A stretch of DNA of 42,054 nt from a virus (IMGVR_UViG_2609459819_000001:1-42054); one strand, 5' to 3'. Numbered from the stretch's first letter, positions 3,472-7,619 are shown. A program made the numbers and translations. Notes: a model not told the origin generated them from the sequence alone.

Positions 3472-4212
3472 TTAATTAGGCGCGGTAGTATTCCCGCTGC
3501 CATTCTGCACACCGCCATGGGTATGCTGGATGAGGCTCTTACCTCCAGCCTTCACATCGTTAGTCACCGTCACCGGCCCAAGCATCGTCGCAGTACCGCC
3601 ACTTTCGCCCATTCCCTGAGACAGATTGCCATTAATCGTTACGTTGCCGTTCAGCGTGATAGTCGGGGATGTGATTGTCGTTCCACCTTCAGCCGTAGCC
3701 GTGAGCTGGCCCGGTGTTTGAACGGTGATGTTATGTCCTGCGGCAACCTCTACGAACGCCGCACCATCATCGGTTCGCAGCTGCGCGGCGCTGGTACTGA
3801 TACCGCTGATTTTCTGTGCTTGCGACTGCGGGCCAACGATGGCGAACGCATCAGATAAGTCATGCTGTCGCGGATCGACGGTCTCCTGAACGCCGCCGCT
3901 CTGCCACCAGAAATCGATGCAACGGTCGGCAAAGATCAGCAGGCACTCGTCGCCTTCTTTTACCGGAAAGGTCAGCGTGCAACCGCCGCCGCGCGGGAAG
4001 ATAACCGGCACATCCACCAGCGGTTTTAATTCGGTGGAGCCATCGCCAACAATACCGCGAAGCGCTACCTCTACTGTGCAGGTAACAGTGTCAGGATCGA
4101 ACGACTGAATGATGCCGGGCATCGCTACGCGCATCTGGGTAGACACCGAATCGGCAATGGCCTGCGCGGTCTGCTGCTCACCGCCGATCTGTGATTGAGT
4201 TGTGATTGGCAT
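3472..4212 (-). CDS. Baseplate central spike protein (gpV / Mu gp45-like)
   Basis: 246-aa ORF; Gly/Thr-rich C-terminus ending LIQHTHGGVQNGSGNTTAPN; position between hub and W-like genes; GGGGG 4 nt upstream of ATG. Confidence 0.5.
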   Translation of the reverse strand: MPITTQSQIGGEQQTAQAIADSVSTQMRVAMPGIIQSFDPDTVTCTVEVALRGIVGDGSTELKPLVDVPVIFPRGGGCTLTFPVKEGDECLLIFADRCIDFWWQSGGVQETVDPRQHDLSDAFAIVGPQSQAQKISGISTSAAQLRTDDGAAFVEVAAGHNITVQTPGQLTATAEGGTTITSPTITLNGNVTINGNLSQGMGESGGTATMLGPVTVTNDVKAGGKSLIQHTHGGVQNGSGNTTAPN

Positions 4213-4223
4213 AAAACCCCCAT

Positions 4224-4247
4224 AAAAAAACCAGCCGAAGCTGGTTT
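4224..4247 (-). terminator. Hairpin with T7 run on minus strand (ACCAGC-ttcg-GCTGGT then TTTTTTT)
   Basis: Stem 4230-4235/4240-4245; lies 12 nt upstream of the V-like start, so probably a cargo-gene terminator read through in the late transcript. Confidence 0.4.
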
Positions 4248-4434
4248 GGTATCAATTATCTCTTAGTAACTAAGCTACATCAGTGTGAAGTAAGGCTTTT
4301 CCGCTGCAATGGCACACATTCACAAGGTGTATTAGGATATGTTTGCAACAAGTAAGCATTGAAAATCAATTTCAGCCATGAAGCCGCCATAGAGTGGACC
4401 TGCACCATCGCATTATTGACTACAGGAGTAACAA

Positions 4435-4725
4435 ATGGGATTTAGATTTCGTAAAAGAATCCGGATTGCGCCCGGACTCGCGATCAACATTAGTAAAAGC
4501 GGAGTAAGCACTTCAATTGGTGGTAAAGGTTCCACCATTAACATCGGGAAAAAAGGCGTAAAGATGACAAATGGCCTTCCCGGCACGGGGCTGTCGCATA
4601 CCACTAACCTTTACTCTCCCGGGAAATCGACAGAAAAAAAACAACTTACTCATAAGCAAAAAATAATTAGAAACATCCTGTTCGTAATTATTGTGTTTAT
4701 TATAATTAAAGCTCAATATTTTTGA
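4435..4725 (+). CDS. DUF4236-like small protein with C-terminal TM helix
   Basis: 96-aa ORF on opposite strand to tail genes; N-terminus MGFRFRKRIRIAPGLAINISKSGVSTSIGGKG recalled as the DUF4236 signature; AGGAG 7 nt upstream; AT-rich. Confidence 0.5.
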   Translation: MGFRFRKRIRIAPGLAINISKSGVSTSIGGKGSTINIGKKGVKMTNGLPGTGLSHTTNLYSPGKSTEKKQLTHKQKIIRNILFVIIVFIIIKAQYF

Positions 4726-4730
4726 CGCAT

Positions 4731-4760
4731 GCCCGCCTATCTGGCGGGCTATTTTACTTT
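4731..4760 (+). terminator. Intrinsic terminator after the DUF4236-like gene
   Basis: GCCCGCC-tatct-GGCGGGC stem (4731-4749) followed by TATTTTACTTTT. Confidence 0.5.
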
Positions 4761-5639
4761 TCGGCAGTCGTATGTTGCATACTGACGCGGCGCATTCATG
4801 CTGGCTTGCAGCCACTGGGCATTGAGAATAGCTTTTCCGTTGCGCTTGATGTACTCAAGCCCAACCCAGCGGCCGGGTTGATTAGTGGCAGCCATCCACT
4901 CCATCTTGATGTTATCCGGTTCCCCTTTGGTGCTACCACCAGAGCCGATTGGGCTAATTTTTTGCGTCTCTGGTTTTGCGCCATTAATTCTGGCCCAACC
5001 ATCAGCAGAAGACAGATCAATCGTATAAGGACCACAGACTGTTTTGTAATTCACGCCAAGCTTTTCGTTACTGTGAACATTACTACTTTTCTCGTAATCA
5101 GCCTTGGCTACGTCGTTCATTTTTTGATAGATGGCAGGTTGCTTCAGCGATAACTCATTTAGCTGTTTTACAAAATTTTCTCGTGAAACCTCTGCAAGCC
5201 CCATGGGTTTTCTATCAATGATATAATCATCATAAATCTTTAATACAACAGCCGAAGAAGAAAGTTTCTTAGCTAAATCATTTACAAAATTGAGATAATT
5301 TAGCTGAGAATTATCTCTTACATCGATAGCCCTAACTCCACCTGTGCCGTACTCATGATATGCAGCATAAAAAGCTGGTATATTCTCCGGCTTTTTATTG
5401 ATTGCCTTAATCAACCCGTCAGGACCACAGATCTCGCCACTCCAGTCAATTAGTGACTTCCCTTTAGATTTCCATGTCTGACAATCATCTGTCGATAAAA
5501 TTACTATCGGCTGCCATCCTGGACGTCTTTTGTACTCAGCGTTCTGCGCGGAATTAAAGCCTGCACTCGCGCCCCCGGATAAGAGCAACCCGGAAAGAAA
5601 AAGTGCGCTATATCGAATTCCGTTCTTATTTGTACCCAC
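4749..5639 (-). CDS. Secreted protein of unknown function (Sec-type signal peptide); cargo gene inside the baseplate cluster
   Basis: 296-aa ORF; GTG start 1 nt after hub stop with AGGAGG 7 nt upstream; N-terminus has basic n-region, hydrophobic LFLSGLLLSGGASAGF and ASA/AQNA cleavage-like motif; AT-rich. Confidence 0.5.
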   Translation of the reverse strand: MGTNKNGIRYSALFLSGLLLSGGASAGFNSAQNAEYKRRPGWQPIVILSTDDCQTWKSKGKSLIDWSGEICGPDGLIKAINKKPENIPAFYAAYHEYGTGGVRAIDVRDNSQLNYLNFVNDLAKKLSSSAVVLKIYDDYIIDRKPMGLAEVSRENFVKQLNELSLKQPAIYQKMNDVAKADYEKSSNVHSNEKLGVNYKTVCGPYTIDLSSADGWARINGAKPETQKISPIGSGGSTKGEPDNIKMEWMAATNQPGRWVGLEYIKRNGKAILNAQWLQASMNAPRQYATYDCRKVK

Positions 5640-6707
5640 TTAATTTCCTCCTGAGCGAGCTATAGTCGACTGGCTAATCAGGTCACGAGCCCCACGCGCA
5701 AAACACATCAAATCCATGTACCACGCCTGACCTCTGGTGTCGCCAGTATAGTCGATAGCTTTGACGATATAAACGCCATCCGTCGCAATGCTGGCAGCCT
5801 GTGACGTCGTGCCGGTCAGCACACGGTTGCCGTTCTCTTCTGTTTCGGTGATACGCCCGGGCGACTGTGCGATTTCGCTATTGCCGAGCGCGGCGCGGTA
5901 CACCGAAGCCTGATCGAGCTGGATAAGACCATTAATACGGATGTTTGGGTTTATCAGGCACCGCACGTTTACTCCGCCGCCCATCGTTTGTTGCGGCATA
6001 CCGATCAGGCCAGTATCGGCATTCAACACAATGGCTTCGTGAATATATTTATCCTCCGGCACCATCTGGACCTGACCATCCACCAGCTGCCATGTCGCTT
6101 TGCACTGCGCAGCAATATTATCCATCACGTTACGGGTGGATGAATAAATCGCACGGCCACGAGGAAACACGGTATCAGGAAAGTCACCGGTAATGCCCTG
6201 CGTCACGCCGAACGCGTTGAAATCCTGCATAGTCGCCCGGTGCAGGTCCGCAACGGTATAACCAGCGGCAAGCGTGGTGATGGTAGTCGCGTAGAGGAAC
6301 GCTTCGTGGTTACTGATGGCCTGAATCAGCACCCAGGAATCGGTGATGTTGTCCTTCCCGGTGACGGTGAAGCGAATATCACCGTCAAATATCAGGCCGT
6401 AGTTCTGACCGTTCACCTGCCCTACCTGGTCTGGTGAAATCTCCCGGGCGACACCAACCTGGCTCGCATCAACATCCGGCGCAATACCGTCATACCCGGC
6501 AATGATGCGAATTTTTGCAAACTCCTGCCCCAGTATCTTGTTCGTGGTATCGGTCGAAAGGTTGTAAATTTTCACGTTCGCCACTCGCGGCCAGCGTGTA
6601 TCTGCCCACTCGATCTGGAACGTGACCTTAAAATCAGACAGGGAAACGCCCTGCCCGTTCTGGTCCAACAGTTGCAGCTCAAAATGGCGCATCCAGTTAA
6701 GAGACAT
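5640..6707 (-). CDS. Baseplate hub protein (Mu gp44 / P2 gpD-like position)
   Basis: 355-aa ORF two genes downstream of tape measure. Confidence 0.45.
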   Translation of the reverse strand: MSLNWMRHFELQLLDQNGQGVSLSDFKVTFQIEWADTRWPRVANVKIYNLSTDTTNKILGQEFAKIRIIAGYDGIAPDVDASQVGVAREISPDQVGQVNGQNYGLIFDGDIRFTVTGKDNITDSWVLIQAISNHEAFLYATTITTLAAGYTVADLHRATMQDFNAFGVTQGITGDFPDTVFPRGRAIYSSTRNVMDNIAAQCKATWQLVDGQVQMVPEDKYIHEAIVLNADTGLIGMPQQTMGGGVNVRCLINPNIRINGLIQLDQASVYRAALGNSEIAQSPGRITETEENGNRVLTGTTSQAASIATDGVYIVKAIDYTGDTRGQAWYMDLMCFARGARDLISQSTIARSGGN

Positions 6708-7016: not shown

Positions 7017-7619
7017 TCATCCCCCGAATGCTGATGTAACGCTTCCGCCCAGCTGGCTCAGCAAGGATTCGTTTGGCGGTGTAGTGGATTTCATCCCGGA
7101 ATTCTGCACCGCCGATGTGCTGACGCCATCCTGCATATCTGATTTATCTGCAACGCTAACGCTCTGCGTCTGCGACATGATCACTTCACGCAGGGTAAGC
7201 GTGCAGTTCAGCACGTTCTCGCTGGTTTTATCCGTTGTCACCTCGATGGCTCGCACCAGCATATTGCTGTAAACCCGCTTTCCGGTCACTACATCGAACG
7301 GCACCCGAGAGGACTGGAGATCCAGTAGTTGCTGATAGGTCTCTTTCGGGCTAAGTCCGGCGCTGAGGCCGATTGACGATGTATCAATGAAGTCCAGCAA
7401 CGAACCGCCACCAGCGAAGCCGCATTCCATTGTGACTTCGCTGGGGCGCTTATACGCATGATCGGCGATGAAGCCCGAAGCGCTATTCGTTGTTGGCTTC
7501 TCCACCGGGTGCTCAGTAATTTCGAGCGCATCAGAATGCTTTTCGGAGACGACCACGCTGGGGATCAGCAGGCCAATTCGCCGGGATTGCTGGCGAAAAA
7601 TCGCTGATAAAATATCCAT
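7017..7619 (-). CDS. Tail protein (Mu gp43 DNA-circulation position)
   Basis: 200-aa ORF directly after the tape measure gene with overlapping stop/start. Confidence 0.35.
   Translation of the reverse strand: MDILSAIFRQQSRRIGLLIPSVVVSEKHSDALEITEHPVEKPTTNSASGFIADHAYKRPSEVTMECGFAGGGSLLDFIDTSSIGLSAGLSPKETYQQLLDLQSSRVPFDVVTGKRVYSNMLVRAIEVTTDKTSENVLNCTLTLREVIMSQTQSVSVADKSDMQDGVSTSAVQNSGMKSTTPPNESLLSQLGGSVTSAFGG

What the first reader, a model, noticed from the sequence alone, without database searches (positions are those of the whole stretch)
5439..5489. Secreted cargo protein shares a DDxQTWKxxGKSLIDWS motif with the tape measure protein
The secreted protein (residues 51-67, DDCQTWKSKGKSLIDWS) and the tape measure protein (residues 331-347, DDYQTWKEGGKSLIDWS; DNA 8591-8641) share 14 of 17 residues, in both cases just after a hydrophobic segment. 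The DNA differs at synonymous positions, so this is protein-level conservation rather than a recent DNA duplication. It suggests a shared membrane-proximal module, possibly targeting the same host envelope component.
Basis: seen in the sequence. Interest (0 to 1): 0.5.

Follow-up and report, generated by a model that had tools for sequence, protein, structure and literature searches.

The report
Phage periplasmic protein copies tape-measure motif
A secreted accessory protein of this prophage carries the same short, highly conserved sequence as the phage's own tape measure protein (the protein that opens the way for DNA into a cell), which suggests, but does not prove, that it is a decoy blocking infection by related phages.

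Summary
ORF296 (4749-5639) residues 51-67 and the tape measure protein (TMP, 7619-9631) residues 331-347 share 14 of 17 residues. The best of 1000 shuffles gave 9. Half of the identical residues use different codons, so this is not a recent DNA copy.

The motif is conserved in both protein families:
- In TMPs of a wide myophage lineage it sits at a fixed position just after a hydrophobic hairpin, and it is the only part still alignable in the most distant TMPs.
- In ORF296 it lies inside a confidently predicted all-alpha periplasmic N-domain with no Pfam family and no structural neighbour.
- Profile-profile comparison of the two families gives 96% probability (E about 3e-9) over about 36-46 columns. 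Nothing beyond the motif aligns.

The N-domain is modular. It is fused to a beta-barrel here and to another domain elsewhere. It occurs only in the accessory slot near the baseplate hub of phages whose TMP has the motif, or in two satellite-like islands.

My best reading, which is inferred and not shown, is a periplasmic decoy or adaptor that mimics the TMP and interferes with genome injection by related phages.

The parts
4749..5639 (-). ORF296: secreted two-domain accessory protein, with a GTG start directly after the hub stop codon
   Evidence: ORF list. AGGAGG lies 7 nt before the GTG and directly follows the hub TAA. 21 homologues at 43-98% identity, most with an SGC/TGC/AGC lipobox. No Pfam, NCBIfam or PADLOC family.
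5562..5639 (-). Signal peptide (residues 1-26). In this copy the lipobox Cys is replaced by Gly (LSGGASA), so signal peptidase I cleavage at ASA|G is likely
   Evidence: Alignment A2: 19 of 22 family members have Cys at this column. The window copy and P0001 (a cluster of 81 sequences) have Gly. Hydrophobic segment at residues 12-26.
5082..5537 (-). All-alpha N-domain (residues 35-186) that contains the motif. It is an orphan fold.
5439..5489 (-). Motif copy 1: DDCQTWKSKGKSLIDWS (residues 51-67)
   Evidence: In A2, D51, D52, C53, G60, W66 and C71 are invariant. The family consensus is DDCxTWKxGGKSLIxW.
4752..5048 (-). C-domain (residues 198-296): small eight-stranded beta-barrel with two conserved Cys, PHROG 3443. 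It also exists as a stand-alone secreted protein.
7619..9631 (-). Tape measure protein, 670 aa, with a C-terminal lytic transglycosylase domain
   Evidence: phrog_2276, E = 5e-222. SLT domain at residues 504-604, E = 3e-25. The gene follows the tail tube and chaperone genes.
8591..8641 (-). Motif copy 2: DDYQTWKEGGKSLIDWS (TMP residues 331-347), the signature of this TMP lineage
   Evidence: In A3, D62, Y63, T65, W66, G69, G70, S72 and W76 are invariant across 12 TMPs, including Acinetobacter AP22 and a Helicobacter prophage. 119 of 120 viral-contig matches to the GGKSLIDW pattern are TMPs with the motif at about residue 342-350.
8645..8755 (-). Hydrophobic helical hairpin of the TMP (residues 293-329), immediately N-terminal to the motif
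   Evidence: Kyte-Doolittle scan.
8780..8809 (-). Degenerate upstream echo of the motif's second half (GAGSVIDWWK, residues 275-284), so the hairpin is bracketed by two xGxSxIDWxK elements
   Evidence: Seen in the BLASTP secondary hits and in the conserved WW columns of A3. This is a sequence reading only.
5640..6707 (-). Baseplate hub gene, upstream neighbour of ORF296. Its stop codon abuts the ORF296 start.
   Evidence: Pfam E217_GP41, weak hit. Synteny.
3472..4212 (-). Baseplate spike (gpV-like), the other border of the accessory slot
   Evidence: Pfam N-terminal spike domain, 1e-41, plus the GpV Apex motif.
4213..5640 (.). Low-GC accessory island (0.37-0.48, against 0.53-0.58 in the flanks) holding ORF296 and a convergent DUF4236 gene (4435-4725, + strand)
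   Evidence: Composition profile. Pfam DUF4236, 1.8e-20. The slot content differs among otherwise 90-95% identical prophages.

Best explanation
Shown:
- The 17-residue stretch is the signature motif of the TMPs of one myophage lineage (sheath Pfam E217_gp31_N, called DUF3383 in the RefSeq annotation of relatives; tube Phage_Tube_PhiTE; Pam3-type plug). There it sits at a fixed position at the C-terminal edge of a hydrophobic hairpin.
- The same motif is a conserved core element of an otherwise unrelated all-alpha periplasmic domain with no known relatives.
- That domain is normally lipid-anchored and is fused to interchangeable C-terminal domains. It is encoded in the accessory slot near the baseplate hub of phages of exactly this lineage. 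In most it lies between hub and spike; in L023 it lies between the plug and an Arc/antirepressor/Bro cluster. It also occurs in two integrase-plus-primase satellite-like islands.

Inferred:
- ORF296 is exported to the periplasm. Most homologues have no Asp at the position after the lipid-modified Cys, so they are probably tethered to the outer membrane. This copy has lost the Cys and is probably soluble.
- Its N-domain displays a copy of the segment of the incoming TMP that lies next to the membrane-inserting hairpin.
- By imitating that segment it either occupies the partner the TMP needs (a host envelope factor, or neighbouring TMP chains during conduit assembly) or docks on the ejected TMP itself. 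In doing so it brings the C-terminal beta-barrel to the injection site.
- The net effect would be superinfection exclusion against phages with this TMP type.
For: - Significance and conservation of the match.
- An HMM of the N-domain finds 93 TMP reading frames through the motif alone. It finds no other of about 7,900 reading frames and none in reversed sequences.
- The motif is the only segment still alignable in distant TMPs such as AP22-type and a Helicobacter prophage.
- Every phage-borne N-domain gene with enough flank lies in a phage whose TMP has the motif: window, L001, L003-L006, L016, L017, L023, L057, L145, L146.
- Export signals and lipobox.
- Modular architecture: N-domain plus barrel, N-domain plus a second type of C-domain, and barrel alone.
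- Low GC, and presence/absence differences among near-identical prophages.
- Location in satellite-like islands, in one case next to a toxin-antitoxin pair.
- Precedents in the literature. The Ltp lipoprotein and HK97 gp15 block injection, and escape maps to the TMP (PMC10883804 text; Bebeacua 2013 cited). SNIPE binds TMPs, and some SNIPE homologues carry N-terminal adaptors homologous to the P22 tail needle (PMC13190303).
Against: - No functional data exist.
- No promoter of its own was detected: promoter-like hits are at chance level. The start codon abuts or overlaps the hub stop. This points to late co-expression with tail genes rather than expression from the prophage.
- Co-occurrence with motif-bearing TMPs is not independent evidence, because the gene is confined to a lineage in which all TMPs have the motif.
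- The lipoprotein motif does not track the resident TMP. In the Dickeya-type homologue it is DDCETAKSGGKALIQW while the TMP stays EDYQTWQDGGKSLIDW.
- The N-domain is rare: 1 of 62 viral loci, 2 species among 185,579 representative genomes, and 4 of 5,426 E. coli genomes.
- The window copy has lost the lipid anchor.
- No physical interaction could be modelled with these tools.
Confidence: 0.4

Rival explanations
1. Structural relic. The N-domain originally grew around a captured TMP fragment, or the reverse. The motif is kept in each protein only because it forms a helix end, a GG turn and a Trp-anchored loop that each fold needs. There is no functional link between the two proteins.
For: The match is confined to about 20 residues, and nothing else aligns. 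In the AF2 models the motif is an integral, confidently placed part of the fold. In the lipoprotein it has acquired a Cys pair that the TMP lacks. The two motifs drift independently.
Against: This does not explain why the shared piece is the most conserved stretch of the TMP. Nor does it explain why the domain is confined to the accessory slots of this phage lineage and to satellite-like islands, or why it is fused to exchangeable C-domains.
Confidence: 0.25
2. Common envelope target. Both proteins use the Trp-rich motif independently to bind the same host structure, such as a membrane interface, peptidoglycan or an envelope protein. The lipoprotein uses it for a purpose other than blocking injection, for example host fitness, a lysis-related role, or protecting released virions from cell debris.
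For: Both proteins act in the periplasm: the TMP after ejection, with its SLT domain, and ORF296 through its signal peptide. In the TMP the hairpin is bracketed by two xGxSxIDWxK elements rich in Trp, which is typical of membrane-interface segments. Late-operon coupling fits a role during lytic growth.
Against: In ORF296 the motif is packed in a soluble folded domain, not next to a membrane segment. The profile search found only about 20 clusters with the N-domain and no identifiable host housekeeping protein among the 68 hits. No known envelope-binding family matched.
Confidence: 0.2
3. The beta-barrel C-domain is the working part, for example a periplasmic inhibitor of the tail-borne muralytic domain, as T4 Spackle inhibits gp5 lysozyme. 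The N-domain is only an anchor or spacer, and its motif is incidental.
For: The barrel alone is the common occupant of the slot, in 44 of 62 loci, and has its own signal peptide. The TMP carries an SLT domain.
Against: The N-domain also occurs with a different C-domain and in a shorter 269-aa form. N-plus-barrel proteins also occur with TMPs that have no SLT Pfam hit. The motif is near-invariant in the N-domain.
Confidence: 0.1
4. Chance resemblance of a low-information sequence, or a recent gene conversion between the two genes.
For: The match is short.
Against: The best shuffle gives 9/17 against the observed 14/17. hhalign E is 3e-9 to 1.3e-8. There were 0 hits in reversed controls. Both families conserve the motif across 20-50% overall identity. 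Seven synonymous codon differences and each gene's own GC content rule out recent conversion.
Confidence: 0.02

Closest known systems
Ltp of Streptococcus thermophilus phage TP-J34 (superinfection-exclusion lipoprotein whose target is the TMP)
   Same: A prophage-encoded, exported, lipid-anchored protein. It blocks DNA injection, and escape mutations lie in the TMP (PMC10883804; Bebeacua et al. 2013 as cited in PMC3952083).
   Different: No Ltp-type structure appears among the listed structural matches, and no known family matched. The host here is Gram-negative. Ltp is not reported to copy a TMP sequence (my knowledge). Function here is untested.
HK97 gp15 moron (superinfection exclusion linked to the TMP)
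   Same: An accessory gene in a phage genome that excludes phages according to their TMP and tail tube.
   Different: gp15 is predicted to be an inner-membrane protein. ORF296 is a two-domain periplasmic protein, and no promoter of its own was detected.
SNIPE defence nuclease and its variable N-terminal adaptors
   Same: A defence that works at the genome-injection site by contacting the TMP. Some homologues carry N-terminal regions homologous to a phage envelope-penetration protein, the P22 tail needle (PMC13190303). This is a precedent for a modular 'phage-derived adaptor plus variable effector' design.
   Different: SNIPE is a cytoplasm-facing membrane nuclease. ORF296 is periplasmic, has no nuclease domain, and shares only a short motif with the TMP.
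Small motifs embedded in mycobacteriophage TMPs (TM4)
   Same: A short conserved motif inside a TMP that is related to a secreted protein and acts in the cell envelope (title and abstract of PMC1796659).
   Different: The TM4 motif is a peptidoglycan-hydrolase motif related to host enzymes (that it is Rpf-like is my knowledge). Here the partner is a phage accessory protein, and the motif has no recognisable catalytic character.
T4 Spackle, and T5 Llp / Cor-type exclusion lipoproteins
   Same: Phage-encoded periplasmic or lipoproteins that block a step of entry by related phages (T5: PMC9586334, seen; Spackle and Cor are my knowledge).
   Different: These act on a tail lysozyme or on the outer-membrane receptor, not by resembling the TMP. 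None of them appears among the listed matches.

Membership tests
Tape measure proteins of the E217/PhiTE/AP22-type myophage lineage (phrog_2276) | Full-length profile match, and gene position after the tail tube and chaperone genes | tested here: met
   phrog_2276, E = 5e-222 over residues 1-669. Synteny in the window and relatives.
Tape measure proteins of the E217/PhiTE/AP22-type myophage lineage (phrog_2276) | Signature LxDDYxTWKEGGKSLIDW at about residue 340, after a hydrophobic hairpin | tested here: met
Bacterial lipoproteins | Signal peptide ending in a lipobox [LVI][ASTVI][GAS]C | tested here: not met
   The window copy reads LLSG-G-ASA, with Gly in place of Cys. 19 of 22 relatives do have the Cys. 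The family is a lipoprotein family, but this copy is probably a soluble periplasmic protein.
Ltp-type superinfection-exclusion lipoproteins | Sequence or fold of Ltp (helix-turn-helix repeat domains, per my knowledge) | tested here: not met
Ltp-type superinfection-exclusion lipoproteins | Blocks DNA injection; escape mutations map to the TMP | not testable with these tools
   Needs plating and escape-mutant experiments.
Morons (independent accessory units in phage genomes) | Composition unlike the flanks, and presence/absence among close relatives | tested here: met
   GC 0.37-0.48 against 0.53-0.58. The slot content differs in L001, L002 and Omnitron at 90-95% flank identity.
Morons (independent accessory units in phage genomes) | Own promoter and terminator | tested here: inconclusive
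   Promoter-like sites are at chance level: 4 found, 3.5 expected. The start codon abuts the hub stop and has a strong ribosome-binding site. A GC-rich hairpin follows the stop codon, but its T-run is on the other strand.
PHROG 3443 (secreted small beta-barrel, function unknown) | Profile match of the C-domain | tested here: met
   E = 8.5e-35, residues 198-296.
Known anti-phage defence systems (PADLOC-DB) | Match to any model | tested here: not met
   Only a 0.024 / 11.7-bit hit.

The most novel reading that the evidence does not exclude
The N-domain is a portable mimic of the tape measure protein. It would define a new class of periplasmic exclusion module, carried by phages and satellite-like islands, that copies the most conserved segment of a myophage TMP to reach or jam the genome-injection conduit and delivers interchangeable C-terminal effector domains there. 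If so, the DDYxTWKEGGKSLIDW segment would be the TMP's critical interaction site: the point where it meets a host factor, or its own partner chains, while crossing the periplasm.
Probability: 0.3. Interest if true: 0.75.

Novelty: new variant of a known kind. Interest (0 to 1): 0.5.

Why it matters
How tape measure proteins of contractile-tailed phages cross the periplasm and open the inner membrane is poorly understood. This finding marks one short segment, next to the membrane-inserting hairpin, as the only part still alignable in the most distant TMPs of a lineage that spans Enterobacterales, Acinetobacter and Helicobacter phages. It also shows that phages of that lineage sometimes export a protein displaying the same segment.

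If the exported protein is a decoy or adaptor, it gives a direct genetic handle on the TMP's partner, through motif mutants and escape mutants. It would also add mimicry of the TMP to the known ways of excluding superinfecting phages. That matters for prophage-mediated resistance in clinical Enterobacterales and for the choice of therapeutic phages. If it is only a structural relic, it is a minor case of motif sharing.

Tried and rejected
1. A word-indexed homologue search with a 151-aa TMP segment returned only short TMP fragments and was uninformative.
2. Extended homology between the N-domain and the TMP was rejected. The alternative hhalign hit (N-domain 76-145 against TMP 123-189) has P = 0.09 and probability 0.6%. 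Second-domain HMM matches score about 0 bits.
3. P0107, the only long protein hit by the family profile through the motif region, is an unrelated 836-aa repeat protein, not a TMP.
4. No TMP reached E <= 0.001 in the 1.84-billion-protein profile search. The motif alone gives only about 20 bits.
5. No known family matched ORF296 or its relatives in Pfam, NCBIfam, PADLOC or PDB sequences. PHROGs matched only the C-domain.
7. The search for related loci with the broad alignment A4 failed because it lacks a conserved stretch. It was rerun with A2.
8. The promoter scan gave chance-level hits.
9. Recent DNA duplication or gene conversion was rejected on codon usage.
10. A structural role in the virion was rejected, because the family has export signals.

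Full report
1. The observation

All genes in this part of the window are on the minus strand. Read on that strand, 5439-5489 encodes DDCQTWKSKGKSLIDWS, residues 51-67 of a 296-aa ORF at 4749..5639. Likewise 8591-8641 encodes DDYQTWKEGGKSLIDWS, residues 331-347 of a 670-aa ORF at 7619..9631.

Fourteen of 17 residues are identical. In 1000 shuffles of the smaller protein the best 17-residue window never exceeded 9 identities. BLASTP gives E = 3e-6 for the pair. Only 34 of 51 bases are identical. Seven of the 14 conserved residues use different codons, including TCA against AGC for Ser. Each copy also has the base composition of its own gene. A pattern scan of all six frames finds the motif nowhere else in the window.

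2. The two genes and their setting

The large protein is the tape measure protein (TMP):
- It matches phrog_2276 at E = 5e-222 over its full length.
- It has a C-terminal SLT lytic transglycosylase domain at residues 504-604.
- It lies after the sheath (386 aa; DUF3383 in the RefSeq annotation of relatives, Pfam E217_gp31_N), the tube (146 aa; DUF3277, Pfam Phage_Tube_PhiTE) and the chaperone genes.
- It lies before the Dit-like, Pam3-type plug, hub, spike, sheath-initiator and baseplate-J genes.

The small protein sits between the hub (5640..6707) and the gpV-like spike (3472..4212). This 1.4-kb stretch has GC 0.37-0.48, against 0.53-0.58 in the flanks. It also holds a convergent DUF4236 gene. 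The GTG start of the small protein follows the hub stop codon directly and has an AGGAGG seven bases upstream.

3. The TMP side

The motif is the signature of a whole TMP lineage.
- A tblastn search of an 80-aa TMP segment against 50,697 phage records hit 119 records: Acinetobacter, Klebsiella, Hafnia, Providencia, Salmonella SEN34, Yersinia, Elizabethkingia and a Helicobacter prophage. In the distant ones only the motif still aligns.
- Twelve TMP fragments as low as 25% identical to the window's keep D, Y, T, W, GG, S and W invariant.
In 119 of them the match is in a TMP at about residue 342-350, in the context SP(I/V)G...L(Y/W)(D/E)DYxTWKEGGKSLIDW.
- The motif directly follows a hydrophobic helical hairpin at residues 293-329.
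- It also marks the border between the conserved N-terminal half and a mosaic central part of the TMP.
- In an alignment of 85 TMPs it is among the three most conserved 17-residue windows. The second half of the motif was a selection criterion for that set, so this result is biased.

4. The small-protein side

The word-indexed search found 21 relatives at 43-98% identity. The named ones come from Serratia, Dickeya and Pectobacteriaceae. A genome scan added full-length copies in Enterobacter bugandensis and Phytobacter ursingii. Nineteen of the 22 aligned sequences have a lipobox Cys. The window copy and its 98%-identical cluster of 81 sequences have Gly instead, so this copy is probably cleaved by signal peptidase I and soluble.

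AlphaFold2 gives two domains:
- An all-alpha N-domain, residues 35-186. Modelled alone with a broad alignment it reaches pLDDT 92 and pTM 0.85.
- An eight-stranded beta-barrel, residues 198-296.

The motif forms the end of helix 42-57 and the ordered loop 58-72. D51, D52, C53, G60, W66 and C71 are invariant, and C53/C71 look like a periplasmic disulfide. That pairing is my inference.

5. The family is modular

A profile search of 1.84 billion representative proteins found 68 hits.
- The N-domain also occurs in lipoproteins of 350-374 aa with a different C-terminal domain, and in a 269-aa protein.
- The barrel occurs alone in many proteins of about 115 aa.
- All N-domain relatives keep the core DD-x6-GG-x-SL, and most keep the final W and the Cys pair.

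Among 62 viral loci of this lineage that include both hub and spike, 44 carry the barrel, 1 carries the N-domain, and 18 carry neither. In 185,579 species-representative genomes only two carry the N-plus-barrel form, while most of the other 19 loci found carry barrel-only genes. In 5,426 E. coli genomes, 4 carry the full gene. The N-domain is therefore a rare add-on to a common slot occupant.

6. Family-level test of the similarity

- hhalign of the lipoprotein family against the TMP fragments gives 95.6% probability, E = 1.3e-8.
- With the broad N-domain alignment it gives 96.1%, E = 3e-9.
- Against 85 full-length TMPs it gives 95.8%, E = 6.6e-9 over 36 columns.
- An HMM of the N-domain searched against 7,994 reading frames from the 120 viral loci hits the one true homologue and 93 TMPs. 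All TMP hits come through HMM positions of about 16-56. It hits nothing else, and nothing in reversed sequences.
- Beyond the motif there is no collinear similarity.

7. Genomic context

Distant N-domain homologues P0017, P0013 and P0070 occupy the same hub-to-spike slot. Their start codons abut or overlap the hub stop. P0106 lies between the plug and an Arc/antirepressor/Bro cluster. Every such phage has a motif-bearing TMP.

P0043 and P0045 lie instead in islands with an integrase and a Toprim/DUF927 primase (P0043's island also has an AlpA-type regulator), which look like phage satellites. P0045 lies next to a TumE/HVO_A0114 pair, inside an island that interrupts the head-gene module of a prophage of this same lineage.

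Close relatives of the window phage differ in the slot. L001 has the full gene. L002 and Omnitron have the barrel only, with its own signal peptide.

8. Interpretation

What is shown: a short, highly specific motif is shared and conserved between the TMP of one myophage lineage and an exported, modular accessory domain. That domain is confined to the accessory slots of the same lineage and to satellite-like islands.

What I infer: the domain imitates the segment of the incoming TMP that lies beside its membrane-inserting hairpin. It would then act either as a decoy for the TMP's partner or as an adaptor that docks on the TMP and brings a C-terminal effector. The result would be exclusion of related phages.

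The literature gives precedents for each element:
- TMP-directed exclusion by the Ltp lipoprotein and by HK97 gp15 (reference).
- A TMP-contacting defence, SNIPE, some of whose homologues use adaptors homologous to a phage penetration protein.
- Short functional motifs inside TMPs.

Several points weigh against this reading. No promoter of its own was detected, and translational coupling to the hub gene points to late expression. The motif in the lipoprotein drifts while the resident TMP's stays fixed. Co-occurrence is confounded by lineage restriction. Nothing functional could be tested.

9. Novelty and score

Neither the N-domain family nor the TMP motif matches any library or paper I could search. 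If the mechanism is right, it is a new variant of TMP-directed superinfection exclusion. Interest is 0.5.

Noticed in passing
window 4435-4725 (+): A DUF4236 gene lies convergent to ORF296. This part of the island is 94-99% identical in many E. coli prophages, while the neighbouring secreted gene differs. It has no PADLOC match and appears in only one paper in the library.
   Followed up: partly
window 4228-4247 (-): A strong terminator-like hairpin (AAACCAGC-TTCG-GCTGGTTT followed by a T-run) sits about 15 nt upstream of the spike gene start on the coding strand. It would stop late transcription before the baseplate genes unless transcription is antiterminated.
   Followed up: no
window 7747-8585: The TMP is mosaic. 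Identity to relatives runs from the N-terminus up to the motif and then breaks (no alignment to Omnitron over 7747-8585, or to L001 over 8203-8516). The motif therefore marks a recombination boundary.
   Followed up: partly
window 8780-8809 (-): An upstream echo of the motif's second half (GAGSVIDWWK, TMP residues 275-284). The hydrophobic hairpin is thus flanked on both sides by xGxSxIDWxK elements. The WW is conserved in most TMPs of alignment A3.
   Followed up: partly
window 5571-5573 (-), ORF296 residue 23: The lipobox Cys is replaced by Gly in the window copy and in the 98%-identical cluster P0001 (81 member sequences). P0007 has Tyr at this position. Some members have evidently switched from lipoprotein to soluble periplasmic protein.
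   Followed up: partly
L002 9884-12151 (E. coli O18ac:H14 prophage TMP) and L138: In these TMPs the otherwise invariant Trp of the motif is Arg (DDYQTRKEGGKSLIDWS). The L002 prophage also has a frameshifted recombinase gene and a truncated tail protein gene, so it may be decaying.
   Followed up: no
L015 7124-19465: A satellite-like island (integrase, TumE/HVO_A0114 pair, N-domain lipoprotein P0045, Toprim/DUF927 primase, DUF2280) sits between the Pa193_gp24-type gene and the cement and major capsid genes of a prophage of the same lineage. This looks like an element integrated inside a phage's head module (compared).
   Followed up: no
L148 (Serratia aquatilis) and L155 (Pseudescherichia vulneris): Multiple paralogous copies of the small beta-barrel gene (at least 7 and 4 reading frames), with no motif-bearing TMP in the fetched flanks.
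   Followed up: no
L013 (Helicobacter pametensis prophage TMP): This TMP carries the motif twice, about 40 residues apart: DDYKTWAEGGKSLFNW and a degenerate TSWAEAGKGLFDW.
   Followed up: no
L024 2279-2665 (-) (Citrobacter phage Omnitron): In place of the DUF4236 gene, the slot holds a different 128-aa protein with a signal peptide, next to the barrel-only gene. The hub-spike slot appears to collect secreted proteins.
   Followed up: no
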